DNA from: Pecten maximus
Lineage: Eukaryota
DNA: 64,000 nt
Reading direction: 5' to 3'
Assembly: GCF_902652985.1 (NCBI RefSeq)
Contig: NC_047022.1
Coordinates: 17,794,001 to 17,858,000 of the forward strand
In this document: piece after piece, positions 18,001 through 27,000 of the stretch
Layout of the letters: each line of letters opens with the position of its first letter
Numbering within the stretch: position 1 is the first letter of the stretch
Program-made: the position numbers

Positions 18001-21000
18001 GGTAACTACGCTCTCAAGAGCTTGTACTTTGACAAACATATATAATTATACTGCAAACATAACAATATATATAAAGCATATTACATGATGCAAAGCATAC
18101 GGACAATAAATACAAGCACAGAAAATCATTAGGAAATATAGTATTAAGTATTAGAAAAACAAAGACTGACATATCATTAATTCATTGTTAAGAAATTGAT
18201 GGTTAAGAATGATCACATGCATTTCTGAGACACAGTGTTACTAGAGGTAAAGTTAAAGCACTCCCAGAGCAAAAGTGTAATACACATATTCTAATATAGC
18301 AAACGGTAAAAAATTCTAGAATAAAAATTAATATCGTGTGAGTTAAAAGAAACCTTACTGGATAGTAAAACGTTTTTGCCATAGTATATATGATATGATA
18401 AATAATGGATGCAGACAATATGCCTCTATATCTATATCTCAATTATTGAATTAAAATGTTAATGTTTCTTCCGGATGTTGTGTTATAACCAACATCTAAT
18501 AGATATCAAGTTAGATTTCAAAGTCTTTTATCGTGGTAGAAACAACAACACGTTTGGAAAGACTGTTCCAGATGTCCACGATTCTAAACTGAACTAATGT
18601 TTTCTGTCCTCGCGCTTGCAGTATTTCTTCCTAATCTTCAATGTATGTCCTGTTGTTCGGTTTGATTTTTCAATTTCAAAAATGTCCTTGTATATAATTT
18701 AAAAAAAAAAACCAACATTTATGGTGTGCCCTCTTTATCGCCGATAGGGCAACGTCGAGAGTCCTAGCTGTTTGAGTCTATCGCTGTATGGTTACTCCTT
18801 AAATCCTCGAATTAACTTAGTCGCTCTCCTTTACACATTTTCCAATGTTTCGATATCTGTTATTTTATAGGGACACCATACCATAGCATCGTATTCGATA
18901 ATGTGGTCTAACCAAAGCCTTGAATAACTGCTTGGATGTTATATGGAGGACTTCTCTAACATTCGGTAATCATTGTGTAACCCTTGATTATCAAAGGTCT
19001 CTGAAAAATGGAAGTGTTTTGTTTCAGTTTTCAGTCAATTTGCATTGTTATGATATTTTGGCAGTTTTTGACGCCGTTTGATTGATGTGTGGGAAGTTAT
19101 TAAAGCCACTTACATTTAATTTGTGGACAAGTATTGACGCCCTCTGTTGTTTGGACACTTATTGACGCCCACTCAGCTAAACAAACAAAACAAAACATGG
19201 CCACCACTATCAGCTTTGTGTTGGGGATGTTTTATTCAATAATCCAGCTTCGTTACTATATTATTAATAATCAAACACACCCGTGAAAAATAAGCCAGCT
19301 TTTTACTTATATCAAAAAACAGATACACATTCTCCTTTCCTAAGCGACCGAGAATATGAAATAGTTTTTTTTAACATATATAAAATTTCATATCTACTCT
19401 TTCCATCAACAGCAGTGAAACTAAACCAGTTTTTACAATATAAAAGGTAAAAATTACAATTACTCCTTTCATCAACATCTGTAAAAATATAAAGCTCTTT
19501 TACTCTAGTAATAAAAAAGTAGAACGATTTCGTTCATCAACAATATTGAAAATAAACCAGCATTATTATAATATAGATAAACAAAAAGAACAACGATAAT
19601 GTAAAAACTTGTGAAAAGGAAACCAACTTTATTACTGTATTGTATATCCATAAAATGTACAACGACTCATTTCATAAGCAACCTGTGAAAATAATCCAGA
19701 TTTATTACTACTATACCCCATTGTTAATCTGGGCTGCATATATGAATACATCGATCACTTGATATCATTGTTACGCCAAGTGTACGGTTATGTGAATATG
19801 TGCCAGTTAAACAATTTGAGTAAAAAATAGAGGATGATTGAACGGTATTATTAAGACTAAAATACAAGTATGTATGTCACACATTTGCCATCAAACAATC
19901 TGACTTTTGAATTTGAATTTGAATTTTTTTTTAAATCTGAATAAAACAATAATGACTAGGCTGTGTTCTTCGGTTATCTCCGGCTTCAATTCGAACTGGA
20001 TAGTCAGACATCTATACAAAATATGAGCTGGTTGTGGCCGTGTGTGGTATGTGAGTCGTGGATAATTTAAACAGAGCCTGTTTGATATTACTAAAGCAAT
20101 ACCATCATCTGAAATCATAAAATTGTGAACAGCATTAAGACTGTGAAATTGAGTATTTACCCAGAAGTCATTGTGTCAGGGTTGATAATTTTTTTTAAAT
20201 ATATGTCATCAGAATGCATGAATTCAGTATCGAGCACCTAAATCAGCTGATCATGATTGCGTAAAAATGCTGAACCCTTTAGCCGACACAAAAGGACCTA
20301 TATGTTGTTATTAAATCTTTAAATTAATTGAAAACCTCATATGAGTCTTCAAAGTGATATAAATGGAAAAAGCAACATTGCAACATTTCTCTTCTTTCCA
20401 TAGTAGTCCTAAACCTTTCTCCAAATCTGAAAGCTATACTGCAGCCGACGAACGGACGGATACAAGGACGAACGGCCCCAAAATGTATCTTAAAGCGCTT
20501 TATCACATTCGATGAAAAATAAATAAAAAAAGAGATGCTACTGCAGATGGTAGTGTGCACAAAGTTGATAATAATAGATCACGGCATAATAAAAAATGTT
20601 TCATGCAAGGATGTTTAGTTGTATGATTAATGTTTTTGTTATAACAACAGCTTATATGTCGTTTGCTTCTTTACAAATACCATCACTGTGTGTGTCGTGG
20701 GATTTAGATAAGAACTTATTCAAATTTCCATACAGGCGTTTGTATCTGTCCTGATGATGTAAACGATGGCACATATCACAGTACACAGACTGTAACGAGT
20801 TAGTTAGAGTTCCAACGGTATAATTTCTCCTCCAATCAAAATACTTTAAGTACTGGTCAAAGTTTTCTGATAAGAAAATCATACGTTTAGCAAGCGATTT
20901 AATGTTTTCAAAATCTTTGGTATTAAGAGAGGATTGTGGCGGATGAAACAATGTTGGATTTGCACCATTTCTAACCACTGGTACAATTTGTTTACTTAAA

Positions 21001-24000: not shown

Positions 24001-27000
24001 ATCTGTATTCAACTATTACATGAACTTTATGAAATATTTTGAAACATTGACAATTTTAATGGTAGCGCGTGTACGTTGAACTACTTTCCAAGCAAGAAAT
24101 TTCTAAAACCTTAGACTGCTTCTACTAACGAATGTTTAACTACTTTTAAGCCAAAAATAAACATCCCGGTTAATTTTGCTTTTTTGCTTATGTTTGGTAT
24201 TAAATACGTCACTGAGTTGGTTATTTTTGTTTAATTTTTGAGTCAGGCTCTTACCTTTTACAACTTCTGTTAAATTATGAAGTAGAATATGACCTTTACA
24301 TAATGCATGTGTCCTCATACATGTAGCAGTGCCTTACTCTCGTATGTTTCATAGATTCATTTACTGAATATACTTCTTGCTCGAAATTGAACTACACCTT
24401 GCATTTGACATAATTTAACAAATATTATACAATGCAAAGGAGCAAATGTTTTTAAAAATTAATTGATTAAAGTCAAATATTTTTACATGAATCCCCACAA
24501 TTACACTTGCAATGTCCAACGGGTTTTTTTCTCTAAAACATCATAACTTAGAAAAGCTTTCTTTCTCCAAGGAAAGATGATGCGTCTTTTCGTAAATAGA
24601 CAATTGAGAAATAGCTGTCTTAAGTGTTGATTCGGGTATAGTTAGGATTTTTAATCACAGTCTAACCCAATCCTTGGGAGAAAAATTCATCGTAGGAAGG
24701 ATGGATTTATACTGGAAACCTTCTGATTTTGGAACGATGAAATCGTCTGTATTTCTAAGAAAGTAAGGATTATTTGAAGCAACGTTCGGGGGTAAAATAT
24801 CACATAACTCAACTCTTTGTTTATTGGCTACAGGAGTAGATTGTGTAAGTATCTTAATTTTTAAGTTTGTACACATCAATACACTCTCCTCAGTTCTTAA
24901 AATAAAAACGTGAAAAAATGCACATTTTTAAAAGCTTTTTGATAAAGATAACGTAATAGGTCGTCAAGAATGACTTTGACCAATGCAGATTTTCCTTGTC
25001 GTGGAGACACGTTTCCCACAAACACTTACATACTAGAGCAAATTTATGACAAAAACAGAAACAACAATGTTCAGATCTCTAATATCTCCGACTTTGTAAT
25101 ACTAATGATCGGTGTAAAAACGAAACAATATTAAAAAGGTGGGCTTCTTGTAAAGAATGAAGTGTAGTAAGGGGCGATAACTCTGTTATTGTTCCTTACG
25201 GAACGTAATGATAGTGTGAGCTTATTTGCGATATTTGCCGTCTATTGTAGCGATTTTGGGGGAGAACAAAATGCACATACAATTTGGCCGATGTTTTGCA
25301 ACATTGTAAAAGTCGGTGCGATCTAGGTCTGGGTGTATCTATGAGCTATTTTGTGTCAAACATGCCAAAATCGTCATTTTGACCAAGAGGTTCTGTTTAA
25401 ATCGCCCTCAAAAGTAAAAAAAAATCGAGAAACATATATAATGCAAATATAAATAGATGAATGTTTCCTGAAGAAAATGTTCTGGTTAGTTTTTTCGATA
25501 TCTTTAACATAACGGTCACAAGATTGTTTTGAAAATGGCCTATTTTGTTTACAGACTGTTTTGATGACGTAAGACGCATTTCCTTCCGTTTAGCACGGTT
25601 GAACAGATGGACCGGATCGGCATACATAGTTATCAGCATTAAAATCATGATGGATCAACTAGTTTTATATTTGTTTTGGGCGAGTCATCTTGGTGATGTC
25701 TTTCAAAGCCTGCATTAACATCAACAGGTCAGTTAAAATTGATGTTTTAAGTTTATACGTAATAGAAATTATTAACACAAGTGGTTTGGTCGGCTTGTCT
25801 ATAAAGGAAAACTATAGTTAAAGTCATCCTGAACACATCGGGTATTGTCACTGAAATGATTCCCCTAGGAGTTCCGGATGGAATAACACCGGGGACTTTA
25901 CGCCGCTTACTCGTTCAATTCAAGGCTTTAGCTGTATTCTAAGTGAGTTGTATTACATTTTCCCGTCATGACCAGGACTAGGAGAGTATAGCTTTTCTAC
26001 CATGACCACATTTGTGGTTGACAGGACCAGCGTTCAATTCGATAACAAGCTTAGAGTAGGCCTTTTGTTAATGTTATACGTGTTCATTAACGTTTTAGAG
26101 ACAGACGCCGTTTCAACATGTAATATTTATTTTCTTTATTGTTTGTTTGTTTAATGACATTACTGTTTCGTTAGGCTAGTTGATGCATGTTTATGTTTTG
26201 ATATCTTGATCAGCTGATATTTGTTTATGTCGAGGAGCAACGTTTCGAAAATCATATCAACTACATATTAGCTTTCGATGACACGAATTTTCAAGTATGA
26301 AGTACTTGAAAATTCGTGTACACACTTGCAGGATATTGAATAATTTGTTTTCAATAATAGAAGTTTTTTTTCTCTCAAATTTTTAATGAAATATTTATAT
26401 TCAAATGCTTTAAATTTTGAAATAAAAGTCTCCGATCTGCCCTTTTTTCAGATTGTTCTTAGGACATTGTCAAATTATATCATCTTTTGCATTAAGAAAT
26501 AAATGAAGTAAAATTTCAAATATATTTGCCCCAAATACTATACAACATATGTAAACCTTTCATTTTATGCACCGAAGAAAATAATAGGCCAGAAAGCTTT
26601 TCTTAAAAATTTAGGCTAGAATATTGTCAATTATCATGTCACATTAAGTAAAATTCATTTACTTTGGGTGTAGAAAGATGTCATGTATTTTTTTTATCTT
26701 TTGAAATTAAATTAATTTCAACTTGTTACAAAAAAGCATAAGATGGAAAATTATTTGACAAAATCAAAGAGTTACACCAGGTTTAAGCTATCAATTAAAA
26801 TTTGTTCAAATATCTATAAGTTGCTTTATTATCAATTTCATATCAACATTTTAACCATTTGCTTACATGTGCCAAAGAAAACCAAGTGTGAGAAATCTGT
26901 TCTGGCAAATCTTTACTAAAATTATGTCAATTGTTATATCACATTAAGTTAATTAACTAATTTAGGGTGTGGAATCATCTTGTATTTTTATTTTATCTTT

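What the first reader, a model, noticed from the sequence alone, without database searches (positions are those of the whole stretch)
18350..25165. Head-to-head fucosyltransferase cassette whose promoter spacer is flipped in one unit (promoter swap)
Seen: units 2 (about 41270-54580) and 3 (57028-end) read [left FucT minus, promoter type B]-spacer-[promoter type A, right FucT plus]. In unit 1 the left flank is a DIRECT match to units 2/3 (18350-18490 vs 40530-40660; 19780-20650 vs 57030-57960). Its spacer, however, is INVERTED (24000-24830 is the reverse complement of 42420-43260; 22000-23960 of 48660-51870 minus insertions). Copy 1 therefore has the left-gene 3' flank with the type A promoter, and an orphan type B promoter points rightwards at 24820-25165. 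Inference: recombination between the inverted paralogues flipped the spacer and swapped promoters, making copy 1 a chimera. This is structurally like an invertible expression switch for glycan-modifying genes. It may be a single historical event, and the outer flanks are mosaic.
Basis: partly seen in the sequence, partly recalled or inferred. Interest (0 to 1): 0.65.

Follow-up and report, generated by a model that had tools for sequence, protein, structure and literature searches.

The report
Flipped core of a fucosyltransferase gene pair
A bivalve gene cluster holds three copies of a back-to-front pair of sugar-transferase genes, and in one copy the middle of the pair was turned round long ago by recombination inside the genes themselves, an ordinary kind of genome rearrangement rather than a working switch.

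Summary
The window holds three intact, intronless GT10 alpha-1,3-fucosyltransferase ORFs: F1 20655-22007(-), F2 51876-53228(+) and F3 61307-62653(+). It also holds two dead 3' fragments covering codons ~322-446. The best relatives are scallop enzymes at 57% identity.

Every unit descends from a head-to-head pair, D'<-gene<-U_B | U_A->gene->D. Relative to the D' flank, which is direct in all units, the core is inverted in unit 1.

F1 is a chimera. Its upstream region and codons 1-370 are of the "right-gene" type. Codons 371-451 and the 3' flank are of the "left-fragment" type. The switch lies between window positions 20900 and 20895 (max chi-square; 1 of 20000 permutations reached it). The "orphan promoter" at 24817-25162 is an old paralogue of part of the upstream region (K2P 0.31-0.38). 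A 58-62 nt remnant next to the left fragments of units 2/3 probably belongs to the same old copy.

This fits homologous recombination between inverted paralogues, a known mechanism. It is old (K about 0.1-0.14). Which lineage flipped is undetermined. Nothing indicates an active switch: unit 1 lacks the right-hand repeat, and each unit keeps only one live gene, always with U_A. Interest is low to moderate.

The parts
18362..18490 (.). Far left-flank block 'c' of unit 1, a direct copy of 40537-40663
   Evidence: 90.7% over 129 nt
18949..19777 (-). Distal part of the D' flank of unit 1. It is an inverted homologue of the sequence beyond the right gene's flank (54922-55704) and contains a degenerate tandem repeat.
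   Evidence: Sensitive BLAST, 60-81% identity
19778..20654 (-). D' flank of unit 1 (3' flank of F1), of the left-fragment type
   Evidence: K2P is 0.14 to the L flanks and 0.35-0.36 to the R flanks. Site patterns are c1=L 104, c1=R 15 and L=R 31 among 569 columns present in all five copies. The patch 20096-19961 goes the other way.
20652..22007 (-). F1: intact 451-codon GT10 fucosyltransferase ORF (stop codon included). It is a chimera, with codons 1-370 of R type and codons 371-451 of L type.
   Evidence: Pfam PF00852 E=6e-46 and PF17039 E=2e-21. 89%/88% aa identity to F2/F3. Site series.
20895..20900 (.). Interval that holds the inferred crossover (codons 370/371)
   Evidence: Max chi-square 31.4 over 132 informative sites; 1 of 20000 permutations reached it. 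Coding-only Fisher test on 6/0 against 1/6 gives p=0.0047.
22008..24816 (-). U_A of unit 1: upstream region and spacer. It is the reverse complement of the unit 2/3 spacers, and homology ends at 24816.
   Evidence: K2P to R2/R3 is 0.135-0.147 (proximal), 0.09-0.10 (middle) and 0.11-0.13 (distal). End of homology shown.
24817..25162 (+). U_B orphan: an old paralogue of the U_A segment lying about -790 to -510 in unit 2 numbering. It points rightwards, and no gene follows it.
   Evidence: K2P 0.31-0.38 to the three U_A copies. No FucT remnant in 24000-28100 at tblastn E<=10.
40861..41945 (-). D' flank of unit 2
   Evidence: Direct match to 19778-20397 and to 57028-57703 (93.5%). Inverted match to 54496-53626 (71-75%).
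42003..42367 (-). L2: dead 3' fragment of a FucT gene (codons ~322-444), frameshifted
   Evidence: tblastn finds it in three pieces. Relative to c1 it has 8 nt deleted and 2 nt inserted.
42368..42425 (-). 58-nt stretch between L2 and the spacer. Its gene-proximal ~25 nt resemble U_A just 5' of the point where the orphan's homology begins. It is read as a remnant of U_B.
   Evidence: Alignment. BLAST E=5e-4. 1-5 of 500 shuffles reach the observed score.
42426..51875 (+). U_A of unit 2, carrying the unit-2-only insertions 43271-48663 and 49259-50491
   Evidence: Block map against units 1 and 3
51876..53231 (+). F2: intact 451-codon GT10 ORF
53232..54496 (+). D flank of unit 2 (right-gene type)
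   Evidence: Inverted homologue of D' at K2P 0.34
57009..58401 (-). D' flank of unit 3. It includes a 421-nt insertion (about 57985-58401) related to 5057-5517.
58402..58774 (-). L3: dead 3' fragment of a FucT gene (codons ~322-445) with one in-frame stop
58777..58838 (-). 62-nt stretch between L3 and the spacer, the counterpart of 42368-42425
   Evidence: Alignment. The shuffle test is weak here: 11-68 of 500 shuffles reach the observed score.
58839..61306 (+). U_A of unit 3
61307..62656 (+). F3: intact 449-codon GT10 ORF
62657..64000 (+). D flank of unit 3, cut by the end of the window
   Evidence: Lies within the 97.2% match between 50539-54576 and 60011-64000

Best explanation
All three units descend from one head-to-head pair of paralogous GT10 fucosyltransferase genes: D' <- gene P <- U_B | U_A -> gene Q -> D. 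That pair was made by an old inverted duplication (K about 0.35).

The pair was then duplicated (K about 0.1-0.14). In one of the two daughter lineages, homologous recombination between the two inverted genes, with an in-frame crossover at codons 370/371, turned the core round. The core comprises both upstream regions plus the first 370 codons of each gene.

Unit 1 and units 2/3 therefore differ in which upstream region and 5' coding part is joined to the D' end.

Later events:
- The U_B-side gene was destroyed twice. In the ancestor of units 2/3, a deletion of about 1.75 kb removed roughly -790 to codon 321, across a 3-nt microhomology. In unit 1, everything beyond about -510 of U_B was lost.
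- Unit 2/3 was duplicated in tandem (K 0.02-0.07).
- Mobile elements inserted.

Today this is a fixed fossil rearrangement, not a switch. Each unit has one live gene driven by U_A.

Shown by the data: the orientation map, the chimera, the ages and the deletions. Inferred: that the recombination was a reciprocal in-place inversion, that gene P was once full length, and that the 58-62 nt stretch is U_B.
For: Orientation map:
- D' and the far-flank block c are direct in units 1 and 2.
- U_A plus the ORF is inverted.
- U_A ends at the same nucleotide in all units (24816; 42426; 58839). In each unit it abuts a U_B-type piece that points away from it.

Chimera:
- Flank K2P is 0.142-0.147 for c1-L against 0.355-0.359 for c1-R. 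Site patterns are 104:15:31.
- In the shared coding fragment, the sites where both L copies differ from both R copies read R at six positions (20963 to 20900) and then L at six positions (20895 to 20690), with one R at 20683.
- The max chi-square breakpoint was reached by 1 of 20000 permutations.
- Synonymous divergence F1-F2 is 0.095 in codons 1-370 and 0.253 in codons 371-451 (Fisher p=0.022). For F1-F3 the values are 0.093 and 0.287.

Equal age on both sides of the break: U_A K is 0.09-0.147, dS for codons 1-370 is 0.095 and D' K is 0.14.

Old age of the pair: D against D' is 0.34-0.36, and the orphan against U_A is 0.31-0.38.

Not an assembly mix of the other four copies: c1 has private substitutions on both sides of the break, for example at 20968 and 20847.

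Known mechanism: NAHR among inverted paralogues gives inversions (one passage of PMC3449122).
Against: - The reciprocal junction is missing. Unit 1 has no right-hand FucT piece and no D flank, so only one of the two predicted recombinant joints can be seen.
- Within codons 371-451 alone, distances do not group c1 with L. dS is 0.117 for c1-L3 and 0.209 for c1-L2, while L3-R is 0.116-0.143 and L2-R is 0.177. c1 carries 8 private changes there. The grouping rests on 6 shared sites plus the flank.
- A flank patch (c1 20096-19961) has c1 agreeing with R at about 10 sites.
- The homology of the 58-62 nt stretch to U_A covers only about 25 nt. It is weak for L3, where 11-68 of 500 shuffles reach the observed score.
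- Unit 1 lacks about 45 nt of that stretch, so an extra small deletion must be assumed.
- No outgroup or allele could be examined, because no eukaryotic genome collection was available.
Confidence: 0.72

Rival explanations
1. The structure is the same but was made replicatively. While the unit was being duplicated, synthesis switched template within the homologous FucT 3' region to the inverted partner (homology-driven template switch or break-induced replication). Unit 1 was then born flipped and never had a right half beyond U_B -510.
For: It explains in one step why unit 1 ends inside U_B and has no right-hand gene or D flank. The chimera and the equal ages of both sides fit it as well as they fit an in-place inversion.
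Against: No junction signature specific to template switching was seen. The end of recognisable homology at 25162 is followed by 2.9 kb of unassigned sequence and a retroelement-rich block, so later loss is equally easy to assume. Sequence alone does not distinguish the two.
Confidence: 0.15
2. Assembly artefact: the join of an R-type gene body to an L-type flank in unit 1 is a chimeric contig join within a repeated gene family.
For: The join lies in a 390-nt stretch that is 88-98% alike among the five copies. That is the kind of place where assemblers err. No reads could be inspected.
Against: c1 is not a mixture of the four other copies. It differs from R by 9-15% in U_A and from L by 14% in D', and it has private sites within 70 nt on each side of the break. 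The U_A|U_B joint at 24816/24817 independently shows the flipped order.
Confidence: 0.05
3. No flip took place. Either unit 1 is a simple inverted copy of the whole right-hand gene unit (U_A, gene, D), or a left-type gene was homogenised to the right type by gene conversion.
For: F1 is very close to F2/F3 in the catalytic half (96-99% per 100 nt). At first sight this suggests conversion.
Against: - The 3' flank of F1 is of D' type, not D type. This excludes a whole-unit inversion.
- dS is roughly even along codons 1-370 (0.075-0.163 per segment). The high 3' identity comes from low dN (0.017 against 0.10), so it reflects purifying selection, not recent conversion.
- Conversion cannot reverse the order of U_A and U_B relative to D'.
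Confidence: 0.03
4. A live, recurrent invertible switch: the core still flips in the germ line or in somatic cells between the inverted FucT repeats, changing which end or which promoter is used.
For: Units 2 and 3 still carry inverted repeats (L fragment plus D' against the gene's 3' end plus D). A crossover in codons 322-451 could in principle give an open chimera in unit 3. Both orientations exist among the paralogous units.
Against: - The repeats are 88-93% alike in the best 373-390 nt, with identical runs of only 47-73 nt.
- The review passage read gives up to 300 bp of identity as needed for NAHR in mammals.
- Unit 1 has no second repeat.
- The left partners are dead, so a flip would switch nothing but the 3' end.
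- No recombinase domain was found in the 30 ORFs scanned.
- The divergence of the two orientations (K about 0.1-0.14) marks an old event.
Confidence: 0.05

Closest known systems
Gene-pseudogene inversions by NAHR in humans (IDS/IDS2, F8 intron 22 repeats, SORD/SORD2P). Source: abstract and introduction of PMC12632684. General rule: one passage of PMC3449122.
   Same: A gene and a truncated copy of it lie in opposite orientation, recombination inside the shared stretch inverts what lies between, and the joints are chimeric repeats.
   Different: - Here the crossover is in frame within an intronless ORF and leaves an intact gene. Only the last 81 codons and the 3' flank change partner.
- The event is ancient and fixed in a paralogous unit, not a disease allele.
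- The ancestor was probably a pair of two complete genes.
- Only one of the two joints survives.
Bacterial invertible promoter switches (fim, hin and other 'invertons'). This comparison is recalled knowledge; no call tested it.
   Same: A promoter-bearing segment lies between inverted repeats and is found in two orientations relative to a flanking gene end.
   Different: - No site-specific recombinase was found.
- The repeats are diverged gene copies hundreds of nt long, not short recombinase sites.
- There is no sign of reversibility.
- This is a eukaryotic germ-line locus.
- The segment carries most of the coding sequence as well.
Tandemly expanded alpha-1,3-fucosyltransferase (GT10) genes of molluscs, annotated in scallops as 'alpha-(1,3)-fucosyltransferase C-like'
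   Same: Same protein family and domain pair, an intronless coding region and a conserved start (MELRR is also present in a Pecten maximus protein).
   Different: Identity is only 46-59%. The three proteins here carry an extra ~36-residue duplication in the stem region. The genomic context of the scallop genes could not be examined.

Membership tests
GT10 alpha-1,3/4-fucosyltransferases (the three ORFs) | Both Pfam domains of the family (Glyco_tran_10_N and Glyco_transf_10) score above the curated cut-off | tested here: met
   PF00852 scores 157-159 bits (cut-off 23.9) and PF17039 scores 77-84 bits (cut-off 28.7) in 3 of 3 ORFs.
GT10 alpha-1,3/4-fucosyltransferases (the three ORFs) | Sequence relationship to an enzyme of solved structure | tested here: met
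   Human FUT9 (8d0o_A), E=2e-25, over residues 134-432. Three distinct PDB sequences matched in all.
GT10 alpha-1,3/4-fucosyltransferases (the three ORFs) | Conserved alpha-1,3-FucT motif in the C-terminal domain, and an N-terminal membrane anchor (type II topology). The definitions of both are recalled, not taken from a call. | tested here: inconclusive
   The block YKFYLSFENALCEDYVSEKS aligns with the scallop enzymes, and a hydrophobic stretch follows the start. No motif library or topology predictor was run.
GT10 alpha-1,3/4-fucosyltransferases (the three ORFs) | Fucosyl transfer activity and linkage specificity | not testable with these tools
   This needs an enzyme assay. dN/dS of 0.13-0.15 in codons 201-451 indicates constraint only.
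NAHR inversion between inverted paralogues | The inverted segment is bounded by inverted copies of the same sequence | tested here: inconclusive
   Met in units 2/3: the L fragment plus D' against the gene's 3' end plus D, at 75-93% identity. In unit 1 only the left copy exists, and the right one is absent.
NAHR inversion between inverted paralogues | The breakpoint lies inside the repeat and leaves a chimeric repeat | tested here: met
   The site series reads R at six sites then L at six sites, with the break between 20900 and 20895. 1 of 20000 permutations reached the observed chi-square. dS rises from 0.095 to 0.25-0.29 across the break. Only the left joint can be tested.
NAHR inversion between inverted paralogues | The interior is collinear and reversed, and the exterior is unchanged | tested here: met
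   U_A and the ORF are inverted block by block. D' and block c are direct.
Programmed invertible switch | A dedicated recombinase, and short specific sites at the ends | tested here: not met
   No recombinase domain was found in the 30 ORFs scanned against Pfam. The nearest transposase-like hit is a Tc3-type HTH at 4082-4423. The repeats are gene copies.
Programmed invertible switch | Both orientations coexist at one locus within a population or an individual | not testable with these tools
   One assembled sequence only. No reads were available.

The most novel reading that the evidence does not exclude
The head-to-head fucosyltransferase cassette is a recurrent flip-flop. Recombination between the inverted gene copies repeatedly re-pairs promoters and 5' coding regions with alternative 3' ends. 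It would segregate as a hidden inversion polymorphism, or arise somatically, and so contribute to glycan diversity in bivalves. That would make it a recombinase-free eukaryotic counterpart of an invertible switch.
Probability: 0.04. Interest if true: 0.75.

Novelty: new member of a known kind. Interest (0 to 1): 0.3.

Why it matters
It is a cleanly resolved natural example of recombination between inverted paralogues re-pairing gene halves and flanks without breaking the reading frame. The crossover is mapped to a 6-nt interval, and the later decay of the redundant partner is visible twice.

It adds to the picture of how lineage-specific glycosyltransferase clusters in molluscs are built: inverted duplication, unit duplication, inversion, deletion and mobile-element insertion. 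It also warns annotators that F1 is a mosaic of two paralogue lineages.

It does not open a new mechanism. If both orientations were found to segregate, it would become an accessible case of a hidden gene-pseudogene inversion polymorphism outside mammals.

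Tried and rejected
1. Recent gene conversion as the cause of the 96-99% identity of F1 to F2/F3 in the catalytic half. Rejected: dS is no lower there than in the 5' half (0.085-0.16 per segment) and only dN drops.
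2. A head-to-head model without a flip, in which unit 1 is simply the intact left gene. Rejected: the order of U_A and U_B is reversed relative to D', and U_A of unit 1 is as close to U_A of units 2/3 (K 0.09-0.15) as the D' flanks are to each other.
3. A one-step origin of units 2/3 from a unit-1-like single gene by fold-back duplication. Rejected: D against D' (K 0.34) is older than the c1 against L flank divergence (K 0.14).
4. The 58-62 nt stretch as meaningless filler. Set aside: its best local match in all three upstream regions falls at the one site just 5' of the point where the orphan's homology begins. The support is modest.
5. Search for any further FucT remnant, including with six scallop proteins. 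None was found.
6. Search for a D-type flank between 25162 and 40861. None was found.
7. tRNA and Rfam scans of the window, run to explain the flank patch that is conserved in all five copies. Both gave 0 hits.
8. Pfam scans of 30 ORFs in total. Apart from the FucT domains they gave only RT, zinc-knuckle, Tc3-HTH and two sub-threshold hits.
9. Polarising the flip. Not possible with three lineages and no outgroup.
10. Literature. Two full-text searches listed nothing on this locus or on fucosyltransferase cassettes in bivalves among the 12+12 titles shown. Only the listings were seen, apart from the two papers opened.

One call failed because the L3 fragment contains a stop. The fragment was then read with the translate tool and left out of the alignment.

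My first dS values for L3 in codons 371-451 were wrong, because the slice ran into the 421-nt insertion. They were replaced by the column-based values.

Full report
**What is there**

The window has 64,000 bases, no N and about 35% G+C. It contains three uninterrupted ORFs:
- F1, 20655-22007 on the minus strand
- F2, 51876-53228 on the plus strand
- F3, 61307-62653 on the plus strand

All three carry both Pfam domains of glycosyltransferase family 10 (PF00852, E about 1e-46; PF17039, E 2e-21 to 2e-23). F2 and F3 are 96.7% identical in protein, and F1 is 88-89% identical to them.

tblastn finds two more pieces, both on the minus strand and both covering only codons ~322-446:
- 42003-42367 (L2, frameshifted)
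- 58402-58774 (L3, one in-frame stop and a 421-nt insertion at its 3' end)

No other remnant exists in the window. With 9 queries at E<=1, 57 of 58 HSP lines fall in these five copies.

The nearest proteins are scallop 'alpha-(1,3)-fucosyltransferase C(-like)' entries at 46-59% identity. 84 proteins had E<=1e-10 among 2167 candidates. Human FUT9 is the best solved structure (E=2e-25). The window is therefore from a bivalve-like mollusc. I do not take it for human. No spliced model was needed, because the coding regions are single ORFs whose start is shared with a Pecten protein.

**Check of the observation**

The left flank of unit 1 is a direct copy of the left flanks of units 2 and 3. Everything from the 3' end of F1 to 24814 is the reverse complement of the stretch that runs from the spacer to the right-hand gene in units 2/3. 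Units 2 and 3 are tandem copies of each other (93-97% identity).

**Anatomy**

I write D for the 3' flank of the right-hand genes, D' for the flank on the left of every unit, U_A for the long upstream region of the live genes, and L for the dead fragments.

D and D' are inverted homologues of each other over more than 1.2 kb (K2P 0.34-0.36), and further out as well (18949-19778 against 55704-54922). Each unit is therefore built on an old inverted duplication.

On the plus strand:
- Unit 2 reads D'(40861-41945), L2(-), a 58-nt stretch, U_A(+, 42426-51875 with two private insertions), F2(+), D.
- Unit 3 has the same order.
- Unit 1 reads D'(19778-20654), F1(-), U_A(-, 22008-24816), then a 346-nt piece (24817-25162, +).

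That last piece is homologous to the U_A segment lying about -790 to -510 in unit 2 numbering, at K2P 0.31-0.38. That divergence matches D against D'. It is therefore a second, old version of the upstream region (U_B). It points away from U_A.

In units 2/3, homology to unit 1 stops at exactly the same U_A nucleotide. The next 58-62 nt lie between U_A and the L fragment. Their gene-proximal ~25 nt resemble U_A at the site immediately 5' of the point where the orphan's homology begins. In 1-5 of 500 shuffles for L2, and 11-68 of 500 for L3, the shuffled sequence scores as well. The best hit is at that same site in all three upstream regions.

I read this stretch as the distal stump of U_B. It is fused to codon 322 by a deletion of about 1.75 kb across a 3-nt microhomology (GCT). 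On this reading the U_A|U_B joint is ancestral, and it is the centre of a head-to-head gene pair.

**The chimera**

I aligned the five copies of the gene's 3' end plus flank.

- In the flank, F1 (c1) is close to the L copies (K2P 0.142-0.147) and far from the R copies (0.355-0.359).
- Of 569 columns present in all five copies, 104 have c1=L≠R, 15 have c1=R≠L and 31 have L=R≠c1.
- About 300 nt (20399-20100) are shared by c1 and L but do not align with R. Shared indels are visible in the alignment.

Inside the 390-nt coding stretch that all five copies share, I took the sites where both L copies differ from both R copies. These read c1=R at 20963, 20951, 20919, 20918, 20901 and 20900. They then read c1=L at 20895, 20874, 20769, 20736, 20700 and 20690, with one c1=R at 20683.

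- Over all 132 informative sites from 21044 to 19778, the maximum chi-square breakpoint lies between 20900 and 20895. 1 of 20000 permutations reaches it.
- The coding-only table (6/0 against 1/6) gives Fisher p=0.0047.
- Synonymous divergence of F1 from F2/F3 is 0.093-0.095 in codons 1-370 and 0.25-0.29 in codons 371-451 (p=0.022).
- In codons 322-370 it is 0 of 31 synonymous sites, against 5 of 31 for either gene versus L3.

**Results that fit less well**

- In codons 371-451 taken alone, L3 is as near to R (dS 0.116-0.143) as to c1 (0.117). L2 is no nearer to c1 (0.209) than to R (0.177). c1 has 8 private changes there. The grouping in that stretch rests on six shared sites and on continuity with the flank.
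- A patch of the distal flank (20096-19961) is highly conserved in all five copies, and c1 agrees with R at about 10 sites there. I cannot explain it. It may be a short conversion tract or a cluster of changes in the L stem.
- Unit 1 lacks about 45 nt of the putative U_B stump.
- The reciprocal joint is absent. The model predicts, to the right of the orphan, a right-hand gene piece followed by D. Neither is present.
- After 25162 come 2.9 kb of unassigned sequence and then a block bracketed by inverted satellite arrays.

**Ages**

U_A of unit 1 against units 2/3 gives K 0.09-0.147. dS of codons 1-370 is 0.095. D' of unit 1 against units 2/3 gives K 0.14. Both sides of the break are thus equally old, as expected if a whole pair was duplicated and one copy then flipped.

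The 96-99% identity of F1 to F2/F3 in the catalytic half is due to purifying selection. dN is 0.017 there against 0.10 in codons 1-200, while dS is no lower than in the 5' half (0.085-0.16 per segment). It is not due to recent conversion.

Units 2 and 3 split last (K 0.017-0.069).

**Mechanism**

The best-supported account is homologous recombination between the two inverted genes of a head-to-head pair, with an in-frame crossover at codons 370/371. This reversed the core (both upstream regions and both 5' coding parts) relative to the outer ends.

That NAHR between inverted paralogues gives inversions is textbook (one passage of PMC3449122). Gene-pseudogene inversions are documented in humans (abstract and introduction of PMC12632684).

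- Shown: the reversed order, the chimera, the ages, the deletion joint.
- Inferred: that the event was a reciprocal in-place inversion, that the U_B-side gene was once complete, and that the short stretch is U_B.
- Undecided: which lineage flipped. A reciprocal crossover makes both products recombinant relative to the other state, and with three lineages the pattern is symmetric.

A replicative template switch at the time of duplication would give the same structure, and it would explain the missing right half. I cannot separate the two.

An assembly artefact made from the other four copies is excluded by c1's private substitutions on both sides of the break. An error involving unsampled copies is not excluded.

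**Function**

In all three units the surviving gene is the one that carries U_A and the A-type 5' coding region. The U_B-side partner was lost independently in unit 1 and in the ancestor of units 2/3. The 'promoter swap' therefore has no living counterpart. What F1 gained relative to F2/F3 is 81 codons (4-5 amino-acid differences by the Nei-Gojobori count) and a different 3' flank. That flank has no AATAAA or ATTAAA within 755 nt, while F2/F3 have AATAAA at +37. The expected count is about one, so this is only a lead.

Nothing supports a working switch:
- No recombinase domain was found in the 30 ORFs scanned.
- Unit 1 has only one repeat.
- The repeats in units 2/3 share identical runs of 73 and 47 nt.

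**Surroundings (description only)**

- The window holds retroelement-like sequence. One piece is an open 662-codon ORF with a reverse-transcriptase domain at 8790-10778 (E=1.3e-34).
- A degraded RT-bearing stretch lies within 33373-37219(+). It is split among six ORFs of at least 80 codons, which means at least five interruptions. I did not resolve whether these are stops or frameshifts.
- That stretch lies in a 9.8-kb block bracketed by inverted arrays of a 46-nt satellite (28039-28829 and 38652-39389).
- Unit 2 carries private insertions at 43271-48663 and 49259-50491. The first has an 87-nt tandem array and a zinc-knuckle ORF.

**What stayed unchecked**

- Reads.
- Expression.
- Genome-wide copy number of the flank blocks.
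- Paper supplements were not needed.

**Verdict**

The core of the interpretation (flip by recombination, chimeric copy 1, orphan second upstream region) is supported and sharpened. The switch analogy is not supported. This is a new, well-resolved member of a known kind of rearrangement.

Noticed in passing
28039-28829 and 38652-39389, with 28830-38651 between them: Two inverted arrays of a 46-nt satellite (about 16-17 copies each) bracket about 9.8 kb. That block holds degraded retroelement pieces. An RT-like stretch within 33373-37219(+) is split among six ORFs of >=80 codons, which means at least five interruptions of unresolved kind. There is also a sub-threshold gag-type aspartyl protease hit on the minus strand. 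Described only.
   Followed up: partly
8790-10778 (+): An open 662-codon ORF with a reverse-transcriptase domain (RVT_1, E=1.3e-34). No other domain was found, and the class of element was not determined.
   Followed up: no
1577-2585; 4082-4423: A 21-nt satellite of 48 copies. Nearby is an ORF with a Tc3-type transposase HTH domain (E=3.5e-8).
   Followed up: no
43271-48663 and 49259-50491 (unit 2 only): Two insertions are absent from units 1 and 3. The first holds an 87-nt tandem array (45299-46553) and minus-strand ORFs, one with a weak zinc knuckle. The flanks of the second overlap by about 5 nt in the uninterrupted copies, as a target-site duplication would. Unit 3 has a ~315-nt deletion at the site of the first insertion.
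   Followed up: partly
F1/F2/F3 codons ~40-110 (e.g. 21680-21890 in F1): The stem region carries an internal duplication of about 36 residues that six scallop homologues lack. Codons 1-200 evolve at dN/dS 0.8-1.3, against 0.13-0.15 in the catalytic half.
   Followed up: partly
22623-22722 (and its counterparts, about 51084-51190 and 60551-60650): This is the most conserved non-coding 100 nt of the upstream region (97-98% between unit 1 and units 2/3). It starts exactly where the homology with the old U_B copy starts, and it contains a GTAAGT that is conserved in all four copies. It may be a promoter-proximal element or the end of a 5' UTR exon. This was not tested.
   Followed up: no
19961-20096 (counterparts in all four other flank copies): This flank patch is about 90% conserved among all five copies. 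It is the one place in the flank where F1 agrees with the right-hand copies rather than with the left fragments. There is no tRNA or Rfam match. It remains unexplained.
   Followed up: partly
40031-40246, 54511-54731, 46825-47023 (-), 63935-64000: A repeat family of about 200 nt at 83-91% identity. Two copies sit directly after the D flank of units 2 and 3, and one sits inside the unit-2 insertion.
   Followed up: no
19900-20654 against 53229-53980 and 62654-63405: The 3' flank of F1 has no AATAAA or ATTAAA in 755 nt. F2 and F3 have AATAAA 37 nt after the stop. About one would be expected by chance, so this is a lead only.
   Followed up: no
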